Part shown: piece after piece, positions 40,873-53,367 of the stretch | Position numbering within the stretch: the first letter of the stretch is position 1 | Layout: the number at the start of each line of letters is the position of its first letter | Assembly (NCBI GenBank): GCA_963778545.1 | Contig: CAVZUW010000002.1 | Location: 90,454-154,453, forward strand | Reading direction: 5' to 3' | Source of the DNA: an uncultured Actinomycetes bacterium | Lineage (GTDB): Bacteria > Actinomycetota > UBA4738 > HRBIN12 | Length of the DNA: 64,000 nt | Notes under the pieces: generated by a model | The model's input: only the letters and a program-made list of their open reading frames with translations | Databases searched by the model: none | Told to the model about the DNA's origin: nothing | Position numbers and translations under genes: made by a program

Positions 40873-41846
40873 TGCCGTTCACCGACATCGCCGTCGCGGT
40901 CCAGATCTCGTTCACGTACTTCACGATCATCTACCTGACCGGTCTCGGCGGCCTGTTCAGCGAGCGCTCGGGCATCGTGAACATCGGCCTGGAGGGGCTG
41001 ATGATCATCGGGACCGTGACCGGTGCGTTCGGCGCGCGCTTCTTCACCGACACGGTCGGGCTGGAAACCGTGTGGGGTCCGATCCTCGGCCTGCTCTTCG
41101 GGGCGTTGTGCGGCGCGATCTTCGCCAGCATTCACGCGGTCGCGACGATCACGTTCCGGGTCGACCACATCGTCTCCGGGGTGGTGATCAACCTGATCGC
41201 GATCGGGGTGGCGCGCTTCCTGTCCTACGCGTTCTTCAACGGGCAGTCCACGCAGTCAGACCCGGGCGGCCCGCACCTGGCGCGGCTGGACATCCCCGGG
41301 TTGTCGTCCTTGCCGGGAGGTCTCGATCGAGCGTTCGAGGGCTTATCGCCGATGGTCGTCGTCGCCGCGCTCATGGTCATCCCCGTGTGGTACTCGCTGT
41401 ACCGCACGCGGTGGGGGCTGAGGCTGCGCTCATGCGGCGAGAATCCCGAGGCGACCAGGTCGCTCGGGGTCAGCGTGCCGCGGTACCGCTACCAGGGCGT
41501 GCTGCTCTCGGGGGCGTTCGCCGGGCTGTCGGGCGCCTTCCTGGCGGCCGAGGTGATCGGGAGCTGGCGGGAGGGCCAGACGCTGCAACTGGGGTTCATC
41601 GCCCTCGCGGCGCTGATCCTGTCCAACTGGAACCCGGTCCGGCTCATGTTCTTCGCGTGGTTGTTCGGGTTCGCGGTCGCGATCCCGCTCCGATTGAACG
41701 ACGCACCCGTGATCTCGTTGCTCCCCGAGCAGTTCATCCGGATGATCCCGTACATCGTCACGATCGTGGCGATCGCGGGCTTCGTCGGTCGCGTCCGACC
41801 CCCCGCGGCCGCCGGCCGCGCGTACGAGGGCGGCGGGGGGAGCTAG
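40872..41846 (+). CDS. Nucleoside ABC transporter permease
   Basis: SERSGIVNIGLEG, GLRLRSCGENP, GFIALAALI, PYIVT. Confidence 0.92.
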   Translation: MPFTDIAVAVQISFTYFTIIYLTGLGGLFSERSGIVNIGLEGLMIIGTVTGAFGARFFTDTVGLETVWGPILGLLFGALCGAIFASIHAVATITFRVDHIVSGVVINLIAIGVARFLSYAFFNGQSTQSDPGGPHLARLDIPGLSSLPGGLDRAFEGLSPMVVVAALMVIPVWYSLYRTRWGLRLRSCGENPEATRSLGVSVPRYRYQGVLLSGAFAGLSGAFLAAEVIGSWREGQTLQLGFIALAALILSNWNPVRLMFFAWLFGFAVAIPLRLNDAPVISLLPEQFIRMIPYIVTIVAIAGFVGRVRPPAAAGRAYEGGGGS

Positions 41847-41850
41847 CGGG

Positions 41851-42469
41851 CTACTCGGTCCCGAACAGCCGGTCCCCGAAGTCGCCGAGCCCCGGCACGA
41901 TGTACCCCCGCTCGTTCAGCTGGCGGTCGATCGCCGCGGTGAAGATCGGCACGTCGGGGTGGTCGGCCTCCATCTTCCGGATCCCCTCGGGCGCGGCCAC
42001 GACGCAGACGAAGCGGATCGACGCGGGCCCGCCCTCCTTGACGGCGGACGTCGCCGCCGAACCCGAGCCGCCCGTCGCGAGCATCGGGTCGAGCACCAGG
42101 ACGTGCCGGCCCTCGACCGGACGGGAGCTTGCGGTAGTACGACTGCGGCTCGAGCGACGCCTCGTCGCGTTCGAGGCCGATGTACCCGACGGCGACCTCG
42201 GGGAACAGCTCGGTCACCGCCTCCAGCATCCCGAGCCCCGCGCGCAGGATCGGCACGGCGACGAGGTCGTCCAGCACGCGTCCGGTCGTCTCCTCGAGCG
42301 GGGTCCGCACCGTGATCTCCGTCGTCGGCAGATCGCGGATCGCCTCGAGCGCGAGGGTCAGGGCCAGGCGCTTGGCCAGCGTTCGGAACACCGGGGGCGC
42401 CGTCTCCTCCGATCGGAGCTGCGCCAGGAGGTGGCCGGCGAGCGCGTGGTCCACGACGGTCACGGACAC
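41851..42469 (-). CDS. upp: Uracil phosphoribosyltransferase, +1 frame break near 42121
   Basis: [42 protein letters not shown]. Confidence 0.93.
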
Positions 42470-42534
42470 GCGCGCATCCTACCGGGGGTGGCAGAACCCC
42501 CGCTCACATGGCCCGCCGTCGGTCCGCCGATGGG

Positions 42535-42563
42535 TTGCCAGAGCTGGGCGAGGCTGCCACGAT
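42535..42563 (+). promoter_or_regulatory. Promoter TTGCCA-N17-CACGAT for leader peptide and DAHP synthase
   Basis: 17-nt spacer; the expected start site falls a few nt before the leader ATG at 42573. Confidence 0.55.
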
Positions 42564-42572
42564 GGCGCCCTG

Positions 42573-42623
42573 ATGCGGGAGACCTTCGGCTTCTGGTTCT
42601 ACGGCGGGCGGTGCCCGGCCTAG
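42573..42623 (+). CDS. Aromatic-rich attenuator leader peptide MRETFGFWFYGGRCPA
   Basis: F-G-F-W-F-Y codon block upstream of DAHP synthase, followed by a terminator-like hairpin. Confidence 0.75.
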   Translation: MRETFGFWFYGGRCPA

Positions 42624-42647
42624 TCGCCTGAACCGAAGGGAACAGGG

Positions 42648-42673
42648 ACCCCGGGCCGGAAGCCCGGGGTTTC
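42648..42673 (+). terminator. Attenuator terminator hairpin
   Basis: ACCCCGGGC-cggaa-GCCCGGGGT followed by TTCGTCGTT; lies between the leader and the aroF SD. Confidence 0.7.
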
Positions 42674-42745
42674 GTCGTTCCCGAGGCCGTTCGAGGACGT
42701 GCCGGGACCGGGCGGGAGGGCCGCCCGGGGAGACGGAGGAACGCG

Positions 42746-43771
42746 ATGGTCGTGGTCATGAAGCGCGAGGCCACCGAGGCCGACGTCGAGGCGGTCTCCG
42801 AACGCGTACGCGCCGCCGGGGGCGAGGCGTTCGTCTCGCGCGGCGCGGTCCACACGATCATCGGCCTGGTCGGCGACACCGAGCGGTTCCAGGAGATCCC
42901 GTGGCGACAGCTCCCGGGCGTGGACCACGTGATCCAGGTCGGCAAGCCCTACAAGATGGTGGCCGCCGACCTGCACCCGACGCCGACCACCGTGAACGTT
43001 GGCTCGACGCCGGTCGGTCGCGGCACGTTCACCCTGATCGCAGGTCCGTGCGCGGTCGAGAGCGAGGAGCAGGCTCTGCTCGCGACCAAGGCCGCGAGGG
43101 CCGCCGGCGCGACGATCCTGCGCGGCGACGTCTACAAGCCGCGGACGTCGCCCTACTCGTTCCAGGGGCTGGGGGAGCGAGGGCTCGAGGTGCTGGAGGA
43201 GTGCCGGCGCCAGACCGGGCTGCCGATCGTCGTGGAGGTCGTCGACGTGTCGCAGGTGGAGCACGTCGCCGCGGTGGCCGACTGCATCCGCGTCGGCACG
43301 CGGAACGCCCAGAACTTCGAGCTGCTCAAGGAGGTCGGACTCTCGCGCAAGCCCGTGATGCTCAAGCGCGGCCTCGCGATGACGATCGAAGAGTGGCTCC
43401 AGGCGGCCGAGTACGTCGCGCAACGCGGCAACTCCGAGATCATCCTGTGCGAGCGCGGGATCCGCACGTTCGAGCCGGCCACGCGGAACACGCTCGACCT
43501 CGCCGGGATGGCGGTCGCGCAGACCGAGTCCCACCTGCCGGTGATCGTCGATCCGTCGCACGCGGTCGGGAAGCGGCACCTCGTCGCGCCGATGTCTCGC
43601 GCGGCGCTCGCCGCCGGCGCGGACGCGGTGATGATCGACGTGCACCCCGATCCCGAGAGCGCCCTGTGCGACGGTCCGCAGGCCCTCACGCCCGACGAGA
43701 TCCTCGACCTCGGTCGCGAGCTCGAGCAGCTCGCCGCGGCGCTCGGGCGTCCGTTCAACCGCGCCGAGTAG
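42746..43771 (+). CDS. aroF: 3-deoxy-7-phosphoheptulonate (DAHP) synthase type I-beta with N-terminal ACT-like domain
   Basis: IAGPCAVES, KPRTSPYSFQG, LKRG, LCERGIRTF, VDPSH, CDGPQAL. Confidence 0.95.
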   Translation: MVVVMKREATEADVEAVSERVRAAGGEAFVSRGAVHTIIGLVGDTERFQEIPWRQLPGVDHVIQVGKPYKMVAADLHPTPTTVNVGSTPVGRGTFTLIAGPCAVESEEQALLATKAARAAGATILRGDVYKPRTSPYSFQGLGERGLEVLEECRRQTGLPIVVEVVDVSQVEHVAAVADCIRVGTRNAQNFELLKEVGLSRKPVMLKRGLAMTIEEWLQAAEYVAQRGNSEIILCERGIRTFEPATRNTLDLAGMAVAQTESHLPVIVDPSHAVGKRHLVAPMSRAALAAGADAVMIDVHPDPESALCDGPQALTPDEILDLGRELEQLAAALGRPFNRAE

Positions 43772-43776
43772 CGGCG

Positions 43777-44553
43777 CTACCCCGGCAAGACCGGCGTGAG
43801 CTCGGCGATGTCGCACGAGCCGCGCCAGCGCGTGAGCCATTCGGCGGGGGCGCCGGCTCGGCTCTTGCGCTTGTCGACGAGGAGCTTGGCCGCCTCTTCC
43901 CACTCGGGGCCCTGCAGGACGCGCGAGGCCGCGTGGAACTCGTTCGCCGCGGTCTCGCGGCCCTTGCGCCGCGTCACGACGACGAGCTCGGATGAGCCGG
44001 GGATGCCCGGCACGGTCTGATCTTCGGGGCCGGGCTCCCGCTTGGACAGCACGAAGATCTTCCCGTTGCGGTAGACGAACCACGACGGGATCAGCTTGCG
44101 CCGCCCGCCGGCCTCGACGCCGACCCAGATCACGTCCGACCGTTTGAGCCCGTCCTCGATCGACTTCGGCAGCTTCGCCGCACCGAGCTGGACCTGGATC
44201 GGCACCTCGATCTCGCCGACGATCTCCTGGTCGATCACGAACGAGACGACGTACGTCCCGGTCTCGTCGAACCGAGCGTCCGAGATCGTGTCGGTCTCGA
44301 CGGTCAGGTCCATCGACCCGATCATGCGGCGGACCGCCGGACCCCAGCGGTACACCAGGCGTCCGGAGGGACCGTAGAAGTGGATCTCCTCCGTCACCAT
44401 CCCGGTCCCGATCTTCCACGCCCGGGTGACCACGAAGGGGAGCGCCGTGCCCGGCGAACCGAGCAGGTAGGTGCCCGGTGGTCCCTGTTCGCCGTAGGTG
44501 TCCCAGACCCGCTGGTCCACGACGTTGGCGGAAACGAGCTCGCCGACGGTCAT
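43777..44553 (-). CDS. Two-domain hypothetical protein; C-terminal split-barrel (PNPOx-like) domain
   Basis: KRSDVIWV..PSWFVYRNGKIFV..WEEAAKLLVDKR resembles actinobacterial split-barrel proteins; beta-rich N-terminal domain. Confidence 0.65.
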   Translation of the reverse strand: MTVGELVSANVVDQRVWDTYGEQGPPGTYLLGSPGTALPFVVTRAWKIGTGMVTEEIHFYGPSGRLVYRWGPAVRRMIGSMDLTVETDTISDARFDETGTYVVSFVIDQEIVGEIEVPIQVQLGAAKLPKSIEDGLKRSDVIWVGVEAGGRRKLIPSWFVYRNGKIFVLSKREPGPEDQTVPGIPGSSELVVVTRRKGRETAANEFHAASRVLQGPEWEEAAKLLVDKRKSRAGAPAEWLTRWRGSCDIAELTPVLPG

Positions 44554-52974: not shown

Positions 52975-53367
52975 ATGCGGCGAGGTCTGTTGGCGGCCGC
53001 GCTCGTGGCGCTCGCCGCGTGCGCGCCCGCGTCCGCGTCGCCGTCCGTGCGGACCGTGGCGATCGGCGTCCACTACTCGGCGTTCTCGCTCGACACGATC
53101 GACGTCGAGCCGGGCGAGACCGTGCGGTTCGTCGTCACGAACACGGATCCGATCGATCACGAGTTCATCATCGGGGACCGGACCGTGCAGGTCGCGCACG
53201 AGCTCGGGACCGAGGCGTTCCACCCTCCGCGGCCGGGGGAGATCACGATCCCGGCCGGCGAGACGGTCAGCACGACGTTCACGTTCGGCGAGCGCGAGCT
53301 GTTGTTCGGGTGCCATCTGCCGGGCCACTACGTGTACGGCATGCGGGGCACGATCGAGATCGCCTGA
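52975..53367 (+). CDS. Cupredoxin (blue copper) lipoprotein
   Basis: Lipobox LAAC, GETVRFVVTN..HEF, CHLPGHY..GM type-1 Cu ligands. Confidence 0.9.
   Translation: MRRGLLAAALVALAACAPASASPSVRTVAIGVHYSAFSLDTIDVEPGETVRFVVTNTDPIDHEFIIGDRTVQVAHELGTEAFHPPRPGEITIPAGETVSTTFTFGERELLFGCHLPGHYVYGMRGTIEIA

What the first reader, a model, noticed from the sequence alone, without database searches (positions are those of the whole stretch)
42535..43771. Candidate attenuator reading Phe, Trp and Tyr together at the entry step of the shikimate pathway
Seen: promoter-like TTGCCA-N17-CACGAT (42535-42563); sORF 42573-42623 encoding MRETFGFWFYGGRCPA, with 5 aromatic codons in a 6-codon block and no SD, so likely near-leaderless; mutually exclusive pairings 1:2 (CGGGC-ggt-GCCCG, ~42605-42617), 2:3 (GCCCGG 42613-42618 with CCGGGC 42651-42656) and 3:4 terminator (42648-42670 plus a short T tract); then the DAHP synthase gene. 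Known: trp and phe attenuators work by ribosome stalling on cognate codons, and DAHP synthase feeds all three aromatic amino acids. Inference: one leader integrates charging of three tRNAs. I do not know of a described actinobacterial aroF attenuator of this kind, but could not search.
Basis: partly seen in the sequence, partly recalled or inferred. Interest (0 to 1): 0.85.

Follow-up and report, generated by a model that had tools for sequence, protein, structure and literature searches.

The report
Aromatic leader-peptide attenuator before DAHP synthase
A 16-codon mini-gene rich in Phe, Tyr and Trp codons, followed by a switchable terminator hairpin, sits in front of the first gene of aromatic amino-acid synthesis and is conserved across many uncultured Actinomycetota; it is a well-supported new example of a textbook control mechanism.

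Summary
Comparative data show it is not chance.

- **Conservation near the window.** The same arrangement lies upstream of the orthologous type I-beta DAHP synthase in 29 of 29 related loci with enough upstream sequence.
- **Blind DNA pattern.** A pattern that names no aromatic codon and no gene had 89 hits in public genomes. All 89 carry an aromatic short ORF (sORF). In 87 of 89 DAHP synthase follows; the other two are cut by contig ends.
- **Translation.** Aromatic codons fill 29% of the sORF reading frame, against 1% and 3% in the other two frames.
- **Promoter.** A conserved promoter places the ATG 7-11 nt after the -10 element in 92 of 92 distinct upstream sequences, so the sORF is leaderless or nearly so.
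- **Structures.** Pairings 1:2, 2:3 (antiterminator) and 3:4 (terminator) have the classical energy order. In masked folding they switch with ribosome position.
- **Wider spread.** Related leaders carrying F, Y and W occur in other Actinomycetota classes.

The best reading is a ribosome-mediated transcription attenuator. The kind is known: Corynebacterium glutamicum has aroR, a Phe-Tyr-Phe leader before aroF. This is therefore a new, widespread, uncatalogued member, not a new mechanism. Three-way sensing is plausible but untested: Trp codons are missing from 18 of 75 distinct peptides.

The parts
42535..42540 (+). -35 element TTGCCA
   Evidence: TTG is invariant in alignment A1. The geometry TTGnnn-N17/18-nAnnnT-N7-11-ATG is found in 92 of 92 distinct upstream 60-mers, against 5 of 2000 random positions.
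42558..42563 (+). -10 element CACGAT (A2 and T6 conserved). The sORF ATG begins 9 nt after it, so the 5' UTR is about 0-3 nt.
   Evidence: The distance from the -10 end to the ATG is 9 nt in 63, 10 in 18, 8 in 6, 7 in 4 and 11 in 1 of 92. The transcription start itself is inferred, not mapped.
42573..42623 (+). Leader sORF of 16 codons plus TAG, encoding MRETFGFWFYGGRCPA
   Evidence: An orthologous sORF is present in 29 of 29 loci and in 118 of 119 loci overall (the exception is cut by a contig end).
42585..42602 (+). Regulatory codon block F-G-F-W-F-Y (TTC GGC TTC TGG TTC TAC)
   Evidence: Across 88 distinct leaders, aromatic codons make up 461 of 1580 codons in frame 0, 17 of 1492 in frame +1 and 48 of 1492 in frame +2.
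42583..42609 (+). Region 1: the 5' strand of the 1:2 hairpin. It overlaps the aromatic codons.
   Evidence: hairpin 42583-42639, -30.9 kcal/mol. Across 88 sequences, 16 of 31 pairs of the terminated-state structure show changes on both sides, and 0 of 500 shuffles reached the observed covariation score.
42613..42639 (+). Region 2: the 3' strand of 1:2. Its first 18 nt (GCCCGG..TAG GTC..CCTG) also form the 5' strand of the antiterminator.
   Evidence: GCCCGG is kept even though the codons encode C/G/S/R-P-A/G, so synonymous positions are fixed.
42643..42657 (+). Region 3: CAGG-GAC-CCCCGGGCC. It is the 3' strand of the antiterminator and the 5' arm of the terminator.
   Evidence: 2:3 fold of 42612-42657, -22.9 kcal/mol; the consensus antiterminator is 92.1% pairable and its 6-bp core is 100% pairable, but that core does not vary.
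42648..42679 (+). Intrinsic terminator: 9-bp stem (42648-56 with 42662-70), loop CGGAA, then TTTCGTCGTT
   Evidence: -19.3 kcal/mol. The stem is present in all 88 distinct leaders, with 4-7 T in the next 8 nt (4 T in 22, 5 in 51, 6 in 14, 7 in 1). It was not detected by the simple scan.
42735..42739 (+). Shine-Dalgarno GGAGG of the DAHP synthase gene
   Evidence: read from the sequence.
42746..43771 (+). Regulated gene: type I-beta DAHP synthase with an N-terminal ferredoxin-like domain (341 aa)
   Evidence: PF00793 at 1.2e-74, PF18152 at 2.1e-19; NF006421 above its cut-off.

Best explanation
This is a classical ribosome-mediated (leader-peptide) transcription attenuator that controls the DAHP synthase gene.

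**Proposed sequence of events.** Transcription starts about 0-3 nt before the sORF AUG, so a ribosome loads on a leaderless or near-leaderless 5' end.

- **Aromatic aminoacyl-tRNAs plentiful.** The ribosome runs to the UAG at 42621-23. There it covers GCCCGG, GUC and CCUG (42613-42630), which together form the 5' strand of the antiterminator. Region 3 stays free, pairs with region 4, and RNA polymerase terminates at the T tract around 42670-42679.
- **Phe-, Tyr- or Trp-tRNA scarce.** The ribosome stalls within codons 5-10 (42585-42602). This melts hairpin 1:2 but leaves 42613 onward free. The antiterminator 2:3 forms before region 4 is made, and transcription reads into the gene.
- **No translation.** Hairpin 1:2 sequesters region 2, and the terminator forms.

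**Shown here:** the anatomy, its conservation, the frame-specific codon bias, covariation in 1:2, and the in-silico switch.

**Inferred:** the transcription start, the termination site, and the response to each amino acid. Phe is probably the dominant input, with 3 codons here and a mean of 3.0 per peptide. Tyr averages 1.4 and Trp 0.8.
For: 1. **Conservation with the gene.** The sORF, promoter and terminator are present in 29 of 29 DAHP-synthase loci of the same class found by protein search, with protein identity of 62-100%.
2. **Blind DNA pattern.** The pattern fixed only the sORF tail and the terminator. It gave 89 hits among the GTDB species genomes. All 89 carry an aromatic sORF, and 87 of 89 have DAHP synthase starting 30-87 nt after the terminator; the other 2 are cut by contig ends.
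3. **Peptide composition.** Of 75 distinct peptides, 75 contain F, 72 contain Y and 57 contain W. Aromatic positions shift between peptides while the frame bias holds at 29% against 1% and 3%. That is the pattern expected of regulatory codons, not of a functional peptide.
4. **Promoter geometry.** It is conserved in 92 of 92 distinct upstream sequences, against 5 of 2000 random positions. An SD-like 4-mer occurs before the sORF ATG in only 13 of 92.
5. **Energy order.** 1:2 is -30.9, 2:3 is -22.9 and 3:4 is -19.3 kcal/mol.
6. **Covariation.** In the terminated-state structure 81.7% of cells pair, 16 pairs show double changes, 0 of 500 shuffles match the score, and slid controls pair in at most 51% of cells.
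7. **Masked folding.** I folded transcripts truncated before region 4, using 88 leaders. With a ribosome stalled on aromatic codons, the mean probability of the antiterminator is 0.88, and the maximum exceeds 0.7 in 87 of 88. With no ribosome the median is 0.13. With region 1 shuffled the median is 0.84, and the real value is below its own control in 71 of 88.
8. **Other classes.** Aromatic sORFs plus terminators occur before the orthologous gene in all 18 of the best loci outside this class and in 4 of 40 further loci. All 20 sORFs recovered by rule contain F, Y and W.
9. **Precedent.** C. glutamicum aroR-aroF, and leaderless leader peptides in Corynebacterium and Streptomyces (passages read in PMC11802643, PMC4046766 and PMC8079986).
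Against: - No experiment bears on this locus.
- The T tract is weak in the window (4 T of 8), and the consensus scan found no promoter and no terminator.
- The whole-leader fold is not exceptional against shuffles (z = -1.55).
- At equilibrium on the full-length RNA, the terminator stays favoured in many relatives even with a stalled ribosome (for example L021-L023 and L030 at about 1.0). The switch therefore works only in a kinetic, co-transcriptional model.
- The 6-bp antiterminator core never varies, so it rests on conservation and not on covariation. About 60 of the 88 sequences were retrieved with a pattern that fixes those bases. In the set unbiased by that pattern, 27 of the 30 loci held matched it; L005 and L030 differ, and L016 is cut by a contig end.
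- The no-ribosome state keeps the antiterminator below 0.3 in only 48 of 88 leaders.
- The 'stop codon' state scoring 0 is true by construction.
- RNA-library contigs also cover 42463-42576 and 42480-42659, upstream of the inferred start. These could be DNA carry-over or transcripts of the divergent gene.
- Outside this class, a simple test for a stretch complementary to the terminator's 5' arm was mostly no better than shuffles. The stretch reached 6 nt or more in 14 of 19 sORFs with a terminator by the rule, but few beat the shuffles.
- One relative (L136) has the promoter and terminator but no sORF.
- The window has a single Trp and a single Tyr codon, and Tyr had no effect on C. glutamicum aroR.
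Confidence: 0.85

Rival explanations
1. A nascent-peptide (arrest-peptide) sensor. The conserved aromatic peptide would stall the ribosome in response to a free amino acid or other ligand, as TnaC does, without reading tRNA charging.
For: Some peptide-level regularity exists: W-F-(F)-Y is frequent, and the tail G-x-x-P-A/G-stop is nearly constant.
Against: Aromatic residues change identity and position freely among the 75 distinct peptides. The constant tail is explained at RNA level, because GCCCGG is fixed at synonymous sites and pairs with the terminator arm. At the stall site the nascent chain would be only 4-10 residues long, which from general knowledge is too short to fill the exit tunnel as known arrest peptides do.
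Confidence: 0.04
2. A translation-independent RNA element, such as a riboswitch or a protein-binding leader, that senses an aromatic compound. On this reading the sORF is incidental.
For: Conserved hairpins and a conserved terminator would also fit a riboswitch-type expression platform.
Against: ATG, stop codon and frame are kept in 118 of 119 loci, with a strong frame-specific aromatic codon bias. The promoter is fixed 7-11 nt before the ATG. No Rfam family matches at E up to 10. The only sequence before the first hairpin is the sORF itself, so there is no room for an aptamer.
Confidence: 0.04
3. A constitutive partial terminator plus a leaderless mini-ORF. It would set a basal level or aid ribosome loading and re-initiation, without responding to amino-acid supply.
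For: Leader ORFs have been proposed to boost downstream translation in Actinobacteria (PMC4833913; search listing and abstract start seen, and a term search that found no aromatic terms). One relative keeps the promoter and terminator without the sORF (L136).
Against: This does not explain why the codons are specifically the three end products of the pathway in every lineage. It does not explain why region 1 pairs with region 2 with covariation. The gap of 30-87 nt and the gene's own SD argue against coupling.
Confidence: 0.05

Closest known systems
aroR leader peptide upstream of aroF (cg1129) in Corynebacterium glutamicum (Neshat et al. 2014, cited in PMC11802643; Mentz et al. 2013, PMC4046766)
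   Same: It is a short leader peptide with aromatic codons (Phe-Tyr-Phe) in front of a DAHP synthase gene in an actinobacterium. It acts by ribosome stalling and transcription attenuation, and it responds to Phe limitation (passages read).
   Different: The regulated enzyme differs. The ferredoxin-like-domain DAHP synthase family matches Thermotoga and Thermus among the 14 control genomes, but not C. glutamicum. The leaders here carry 3-8 aromatic codons and mostly include Trp. The lineage is a different, uncultured class.
pheL-pheA and trpL-trpE leader-peptide attenuators of Escherichia coli (Rfam Phe_leader and Trp_leader; names recalled)
   Same: They share the four-region logic: regulatory codons in region 1, a 2:3 antiterminator, a 3:4 terminator, and a default of termination without translation.
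   Different: Each of those reads one amino acid, has a Shine-Dalgarno-led sORF, and controls a branch pathway. This element is leaderless, mixes three amino acids and controls the common entry step. There is no Rfam match.
Multivalent attenuators ilvGMEDA, ilvBN(C) and thr (textbook knowledge; ilvB leaders of Corynebacterium and Streptomyces are mentioned in PMC4046766 and PMC8079986)
   Same: One leader peptide mixes codons for several end products of a shared pathway. The actinobacterial ones are translated without a ribosome-binding site.
   Different: They concern branched-chain or Thr/Ile amino acids, not aromatic ones.

Membership tests
Leader-peptide (ribosome-mediated) transcription attenuator | A short translated ORF enriched in codons for the end product(s) of the controlled pathway | tested here: met
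   The window has 5 aromatic codons in 6. Aromatic codons fill 29% of frame 0 against 1% and 3% off-frame across 88 leaders. F is present in 75 of 75 peptides, Y in 72 and W in 57. Translation itself is not shown.
Leader-peptide (ribosome-mediated) transcription attenuator | An intrinsic terminator between the sORF and the structural gene | tested here: met
   A 9-bp GC stem of -19.3 kcal/mol with a T-rich tail is present in all 88 distinct leaders. The T tract in the window is weak and was missed by the simple scan.
Leader-peptide (ribosome-mediated) transcription attenuator | An antiterminator that shares a strand with the terminator, and a 1:2 pairing that shares a strand with the antiterminator | tested here: met
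   1:2 shows covariation. The 2:3 core is invariant and 100% pairable, so it is not supported by covariation.
Leader-peptide (ribosome-mediated) transcription attenuator | The ribosome position on the regulatory codons, versus the stop codon, selects the fold | tested here: inconclusive
   In silico only. A stall gives a mean antiterminator probability of 0.88, and the free state a median of 0.13. Equilibrium folding of the full RNA does not switch in many relatives.
Leader-peptide (ribosome-mediated) transcription attenuator | Read-through rises on starvation for the cognate amino acid | not testable with these tools
   This needs reporter, Term-seq or Ribo-seq data. RNA-library contigs bridge the terminator into the gene (X2, 42593-42784) but cannot show ends or levels.
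C. glutamicum aroR-aroF attenuator (as a homologous family) | The same regulated gene family, and a leader alignable to aroR | tested here: not met
   The ferredoxin-like-domain DAHP synthase (PF18152) does not match the C. glutamicum control genome. Alignment of the leader to aroR was not possible because no sequence was held.
Rfam amino-acid leader families (release 15) | A covariance-model match | tested here: not met
   cmscan of 41500-44500 at E up to 10 gave 7 weak, unrelated hits, all far below their gathering scores, and no leader-peptide family.
Type I-beta DAHP synthase with a ferredoxin-like regulatory domain | DAHP_synth_1 catalytic domain plus the N-terminal DAHP_snth_FXD domain | tested here: met
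   PF00793 at 251 bits and PF18152 at 69.6 bits. NF006421 at 453.8 bits against a cut-off of 335.

The most novel reading that the evidence does not exclude
This may be the founding member of a widespread, uncatalogued RNA family in which a single leaderless leader sums the charging of Phe-, Tyr- and Trp-tRNA at the committed step of the shikimate pathway. It spans at least two classes of Actinomycetota. Its input weights appear to be retuned in evolution by gain and loss of single codons: Trp codons are lost in about a quarter of the peptides of this class and kept in all those sampled elsewhere. If so, the variants form a natural series showing how a multi-input attenuator is tuned.
Probability: 0.45. 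Interest if true: 0.6.

Novelty: new member of a known kind. Interest (0 to 1): 0.45.

Why it matters
It supplies a regulatory annotation for the entry step of aromatic amino-acid synthesis in a large group of soil Actinomycetota known only from metagenome-assembled genomes. It shows that the aroR-type logic found in Corynebacterium is not an oddity: a recurrent solution is attached here to a different DAHP synthase class. It is also a clean candidate for a new Rfam family, with about 90 distinct sequences already aligned.

The element is compact, about 100 nt, and leaderless. That makes it a convenient aromatic amino-acid-responsive part for high-GC hosts. The natural variants, with and without Trp codons and with different Phe/Tyr counts, make the question of how a multivalent attenuator weights its inputs directly testable.

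It does not change the understanding of attenuation itself.

Tried and rejected
- **Simple consensus scan.** It found 0 promoters and 0 terminators. It is too strict for this -10 element (CACGAT) and this T tract.
- **Rfam.** Nothing relevant.
- **Whole-leader fold z-score.** It was -1.55, which is uninformative.
- **Equilibrium folding with masks.** The result was mixed, so I replaced it with a truncated-transcript model.
- **'Any pairing of region 3' as a metric.** It was uninformative, because region 3 finds other partners. I replaced it with the specific 2:3 probability.
- **The window's own 2:3 register, CCGGCCU:GGGCCGG.** It is not conserved: one of its pairs forms in only 9 of 88 sequences. 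The conserved register is GCCCGG:CCGGGC.
- **RNA runs.** Four rhizosphere metatranscriptome runs from one study hold the region as contigs. Contigs cannot show starts, ends or strand, and DNA carry-over is not excluded. Depth differences along the stretch are not evidence.
- **Other aromatic leaders in the same genome.** No W-rich or aromatic sORF was seen within about 350 nt upstream of three chorismate-binding-enzyme genes or the prephenate dehydratase gene. The scan was crude, the genome is 84% complete, and absence is not shown. A first terminator filter was faulty: it missed the known locus.
- **Rule hits L172, L175 and L177.** They proved to be out-of-frame readings of an upstream gene. 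Rule hits L167, L170 and L178, from low-GC genomes, were not inspected.
- **L182 and L197.** They are doubtful distant variants.
- **Test for a stretch complementary to the terminator arm outside this class.** Mostly no better than shuffles.
- **Literature search.** It was useless because the prefix 'aror' matched unrelated words.
- **Claim of 'not in print'.** It rests only on the searches, and on term look-ups in PMC1262725, PMC2965389, PMC4833913 and PMC8079986. The original aroR paper (J Biotechnol 2014) is not in the library and was not read. Supplements were not consulted.
- **Organism name.** The lineage could not be named. Records are titled only 'Actinomycetota bacterium' or 'uncultured Actinomycetes bacterium'.
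Full report
**Observation.**
- TTGCCA lies at 42535-40, followed by a 17-nt spacer and CACGAT at 42558-63.
- Nine nt later is the ATG at 42573.
- A 16-codon ORF ends in TAG at 42621-23 and encodes MRETFGFWFYGGRCPA. Five of codons 5-10 are aromatic.
- The small hairpin CGGGC-ggt-GCCCG is present.
- GCCCGG (42613-18) is complementary to CCGGGC (42651-56).
- A 9-bp GC hairpin at 42648-70 is followed by TTTCGTCGTT.

The downstream gene (42746-43771) is a type I-beta DAHP synthase with the N-terminal ferredoxin-like domain. It is monocistronic here, because the next ORF is on the other strand. The upstream gene is divergent and resembles uracil phosphoribosyltransferase. The consensus scan saw neither a promoter nor a terminator, and Rfam has no match.

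**Is it more than chance?** I examined all six frames of the 3.0-Mb, 70% GC genome. Blocks of 5 or more aromatic codons in 6 occur at 19 places, apart from one poly-T tract. Four lie within 25 codons of a stop, and on my reading of the printed downstream sequence only this one is followed by a terminator-like hairpin.

**Comparative evidence within the lineage.** A protein search of 41 related genomes returned 30 DAHP synthase loci with 62-100% identity.
- All 29 loci with enough upstream sequence carry a 16-19-codon sORF with an aromatic block and a tail G-x-x-P-A/G/E-stop. The same promoter and terminator accompany it. The thirtieth locus is cut by a contig end.
- I then built a DNA pattern from the sORF tail and the terminator only. 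It names no aromatic codon and no gene, and it matched 27 of the 30 loci.
- Scanned against one genome per GTDB species, the pattern hit 89 stretches. All 89 have an aromatic sORF. In 87 of 89, DAHP synthase starts 30-87 nt after the terminator; the other two end 42 and 148 nt after it.
- Of the 80 records whose titles the call printed, 78 are titled as Actinomycetota or Actinomycetes metagenome-assembled genomes. Two carry other labels and are probably mis-binned.
- Overall, 118 of 119 loci hold the leader. There are 88 distinct leader RNAs and 75 distinct peptides. F is present in 75, Y in 72, W in 57, and all three in 55.

**Evidence that the sORF is read as codons.**
- Aromatic codons make up 461 of 1580 codons in the sORF frame, 17 of 1492 in frame +1 and 48 of 1492 in frame +2.
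- Aromatic residues move and interchange between peptides, while the ATG, the stop codon and the frame are kept.
- The promoter geometry TTGnnn-N17/18-nAnnnT, followed 7-11 nt later (mode 9) by the ATG, is present in 92 of 92 distinct upstream sequences. It occurs at 5 of 2000 random positions.
- The transcript should therefore begin 0-3 nt before the AUG. This is inferred, not mapped.
- Leaderless leader peptides are the rule for actinobacterial attenuators (passages in PMC4046766 and PMC8079986).

**Structures.** A 57-nt hairpin (42583-42639, -30.9 kcal/mol) folds the aromatic codons onto the sORF tail and the first 16 nt after the stop codon.

The conserved antiterminator 2:3 has three parts, totalling -22.9 kcal/mol:
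- GCCCGG:CCGGGC
- GUC:GAC, where the G is the last base of the stop codon
- CCUG:CAGG

The terminator 3:4 is -19.3 kcal/mol. This is the classical order of stabilities.

On the 88-sequence MAFFT alignment, which was not fitted to any structure:
- **Terminated state.** It pairs in 81.7% of cells. Sixteen of 31 pairs show changes on both sides, 0 of 500 shuffles reach the covariation score, and slid controls pair in at most 51% of cells.
- **Antiterminator.** It pairs in 92.1% of cells, but its 6-bp core never varies. Its support is therefore conservation at synonymous positions (xGC-CCG-GCx encoding C/G/S/R-P-A/G), not covariation. About 60 of the 88 sequences were ascertained with those bases fixed.

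**Ribosome-masked folding.** I truncated transcripts before region 4 to mimic the moment of decision.
- With a ribosome whose A site is on an aromatic codon, the mean 2:3 probability is 0.88. The maximum exceeds 0.7 in 87 of 88 leaders.
- With no ribosome, the median is 0.13, and 48 of 88 are below 0.3.
- With region 1 shuffled, the median rises to 0.84, and the real value is below its own control in 71 of 88.
- A ribosome at the stop codon covers the whole 5' strand of 2:3, so that state scores 0 by construction.
- Equilibrium folding of the full RNA does not switch in many relatives. The mechanism has to be kinetic, as in textbook attenuators.

**Range.** The class holding the window consists of a single order in the collection.
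- Members of two of its families have a DAHP synthase only 43-47% identical. It lies directly behind another gene, and they lack the leader.
- In a phylum-wide sample, the 18 best loci outside this class (58-63% identity; four other families) all carry a leaderless-looking aromatic sORF plus a strong terminator.
- Of 40 further loci from 28 families, 4 clearly carry it, 2 are doubtful and 3 rule hits were not inspected.
- All 20 sORFs recovered by rule outside the class contain F, Y and W. Nineteen of the 20 have a terminator hairpin of -17 to -25 kcal/mol.
- The antiterminator there is not established by my crude test.

**Expression data.** Contigs from four rhizosphere metatranscriptome runs of one study cover the leader. 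One contig bridges the terminator into the gene (42593-42784, with 3 differences). Others extend upstream of the inferred start (42480-42659). Contigs give no ends or strand, and DNA carry-over is possible. This neither supports nor refutes the model.

**Comparison with what is known.** The mechanism is the textbook leader-peptide attenuator.
- An actinobacterial DAHP-synthase attenuator is already described. In C. glutamicum, aroR encodes a Phe-Tyr-Phe leader before aroF. Transcription rises under Phe limitation, while Tyr availability has no effect (passages read in PMC11802643; predicted earlier in PMC4046766).
- The present element controls a different DAHP synthase class. The ferredoxin-like domain family matches Thermotoga and Thermus but not C. 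glutamicum among 14 control genomes.
- It carries more aromatic codons, usually includes Trp, and occurs in uncultured classes.
- I found no description of it in the held library. The searches were those. The comparative study of actinobacterial attenuators, PMC1262725, contains none of aroF, aroG, aroH, pheA or DAHP.
- Mixing codons for several end products in one leader is known from the ilv and thr operons (recalled).

**Verdict.**
- The attenuator interpretation is well supported (confidence 0.85).
- Three-input sensing is plausible, at roughly even odds for a measurable Trp effect in this organism.
- It is a new member of a known kind. It is widespread and absent from Rfam, and worth cataloguing and testing, but it is not mechanistically surprising.

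Noticed in passing
L136 (genome handle G043, same family as the window), upstream of its DAHP synthase: The promoter (TTGCCA ... CATCAT) and a terminator-like hairpin with a T tract are kept. The aromatic sORF is missing, apparently deleted from the leader. How the gene escapes termination there is unclear.
   Followed up: no
L124-L130 (handles G036, G077, G087, G031, G127, G100, G030; two other families of the same class): The DAHP synthase there is only 43-47% identical. It lies directly behind another ORF with no leader, terminator or aromatic sORF. The same class therefore uses two different arrangements for this step. The upstream ORF was not identified.
   Followed up: partly
G000 contig C11, reverse-strand coordinates about 53119-53263 (outside the window): Two long runs of T interrupted by a short CT-rich stretch, about 145 nt in all, in a 70% GC genome. 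This may be an assembly artefact or foreign DNA.
   Followed up: no
L043 and L089 (records titled Planctomycetaceae MAG and Candidatus Velamenicoccus archaeovorus MAG): Both carry the same actinobacterial leader plus a DAHP synthase 74-77% identical to the window's. These contigs are probably mis-binned.
   Followed up: no
window 41843-42469 (-): The divergent upstream ORF (208 aa) matches uracil phosphoribosyltransferase models only over its first 117 residues or so, and it scores below the NCBIfam cut-offs (106.9 against 114 bits). It may be truncated, frameshifted or divergent.
   Followed up: no
G000: C19:22407-23165(-), C3:6220-6999(-), C8:95844-96617(+), C12:240654-241184(+): No Trp-rich or aromatic leader sORF was seen within about 350 nt upstream of the three chorismate-binding-enzyme genes or the prephenate dehydratase gene. 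The DAHP synthase leader may be the only aromatic attenuator in this genome, which is 84% complete. The scan was crude.
   Followed up: partly
L182 (handle G182, another family of the phylum), about 160 nt upstream of DAHP synthase: A 30-codon ORF with 8 aromatic residues lies behind a promoter-like TTGGCA. It is followed by long-range complementary segments but no evident T tract. It may be a distant or Rho-dependent variant of the same idea.
   Followed up: no
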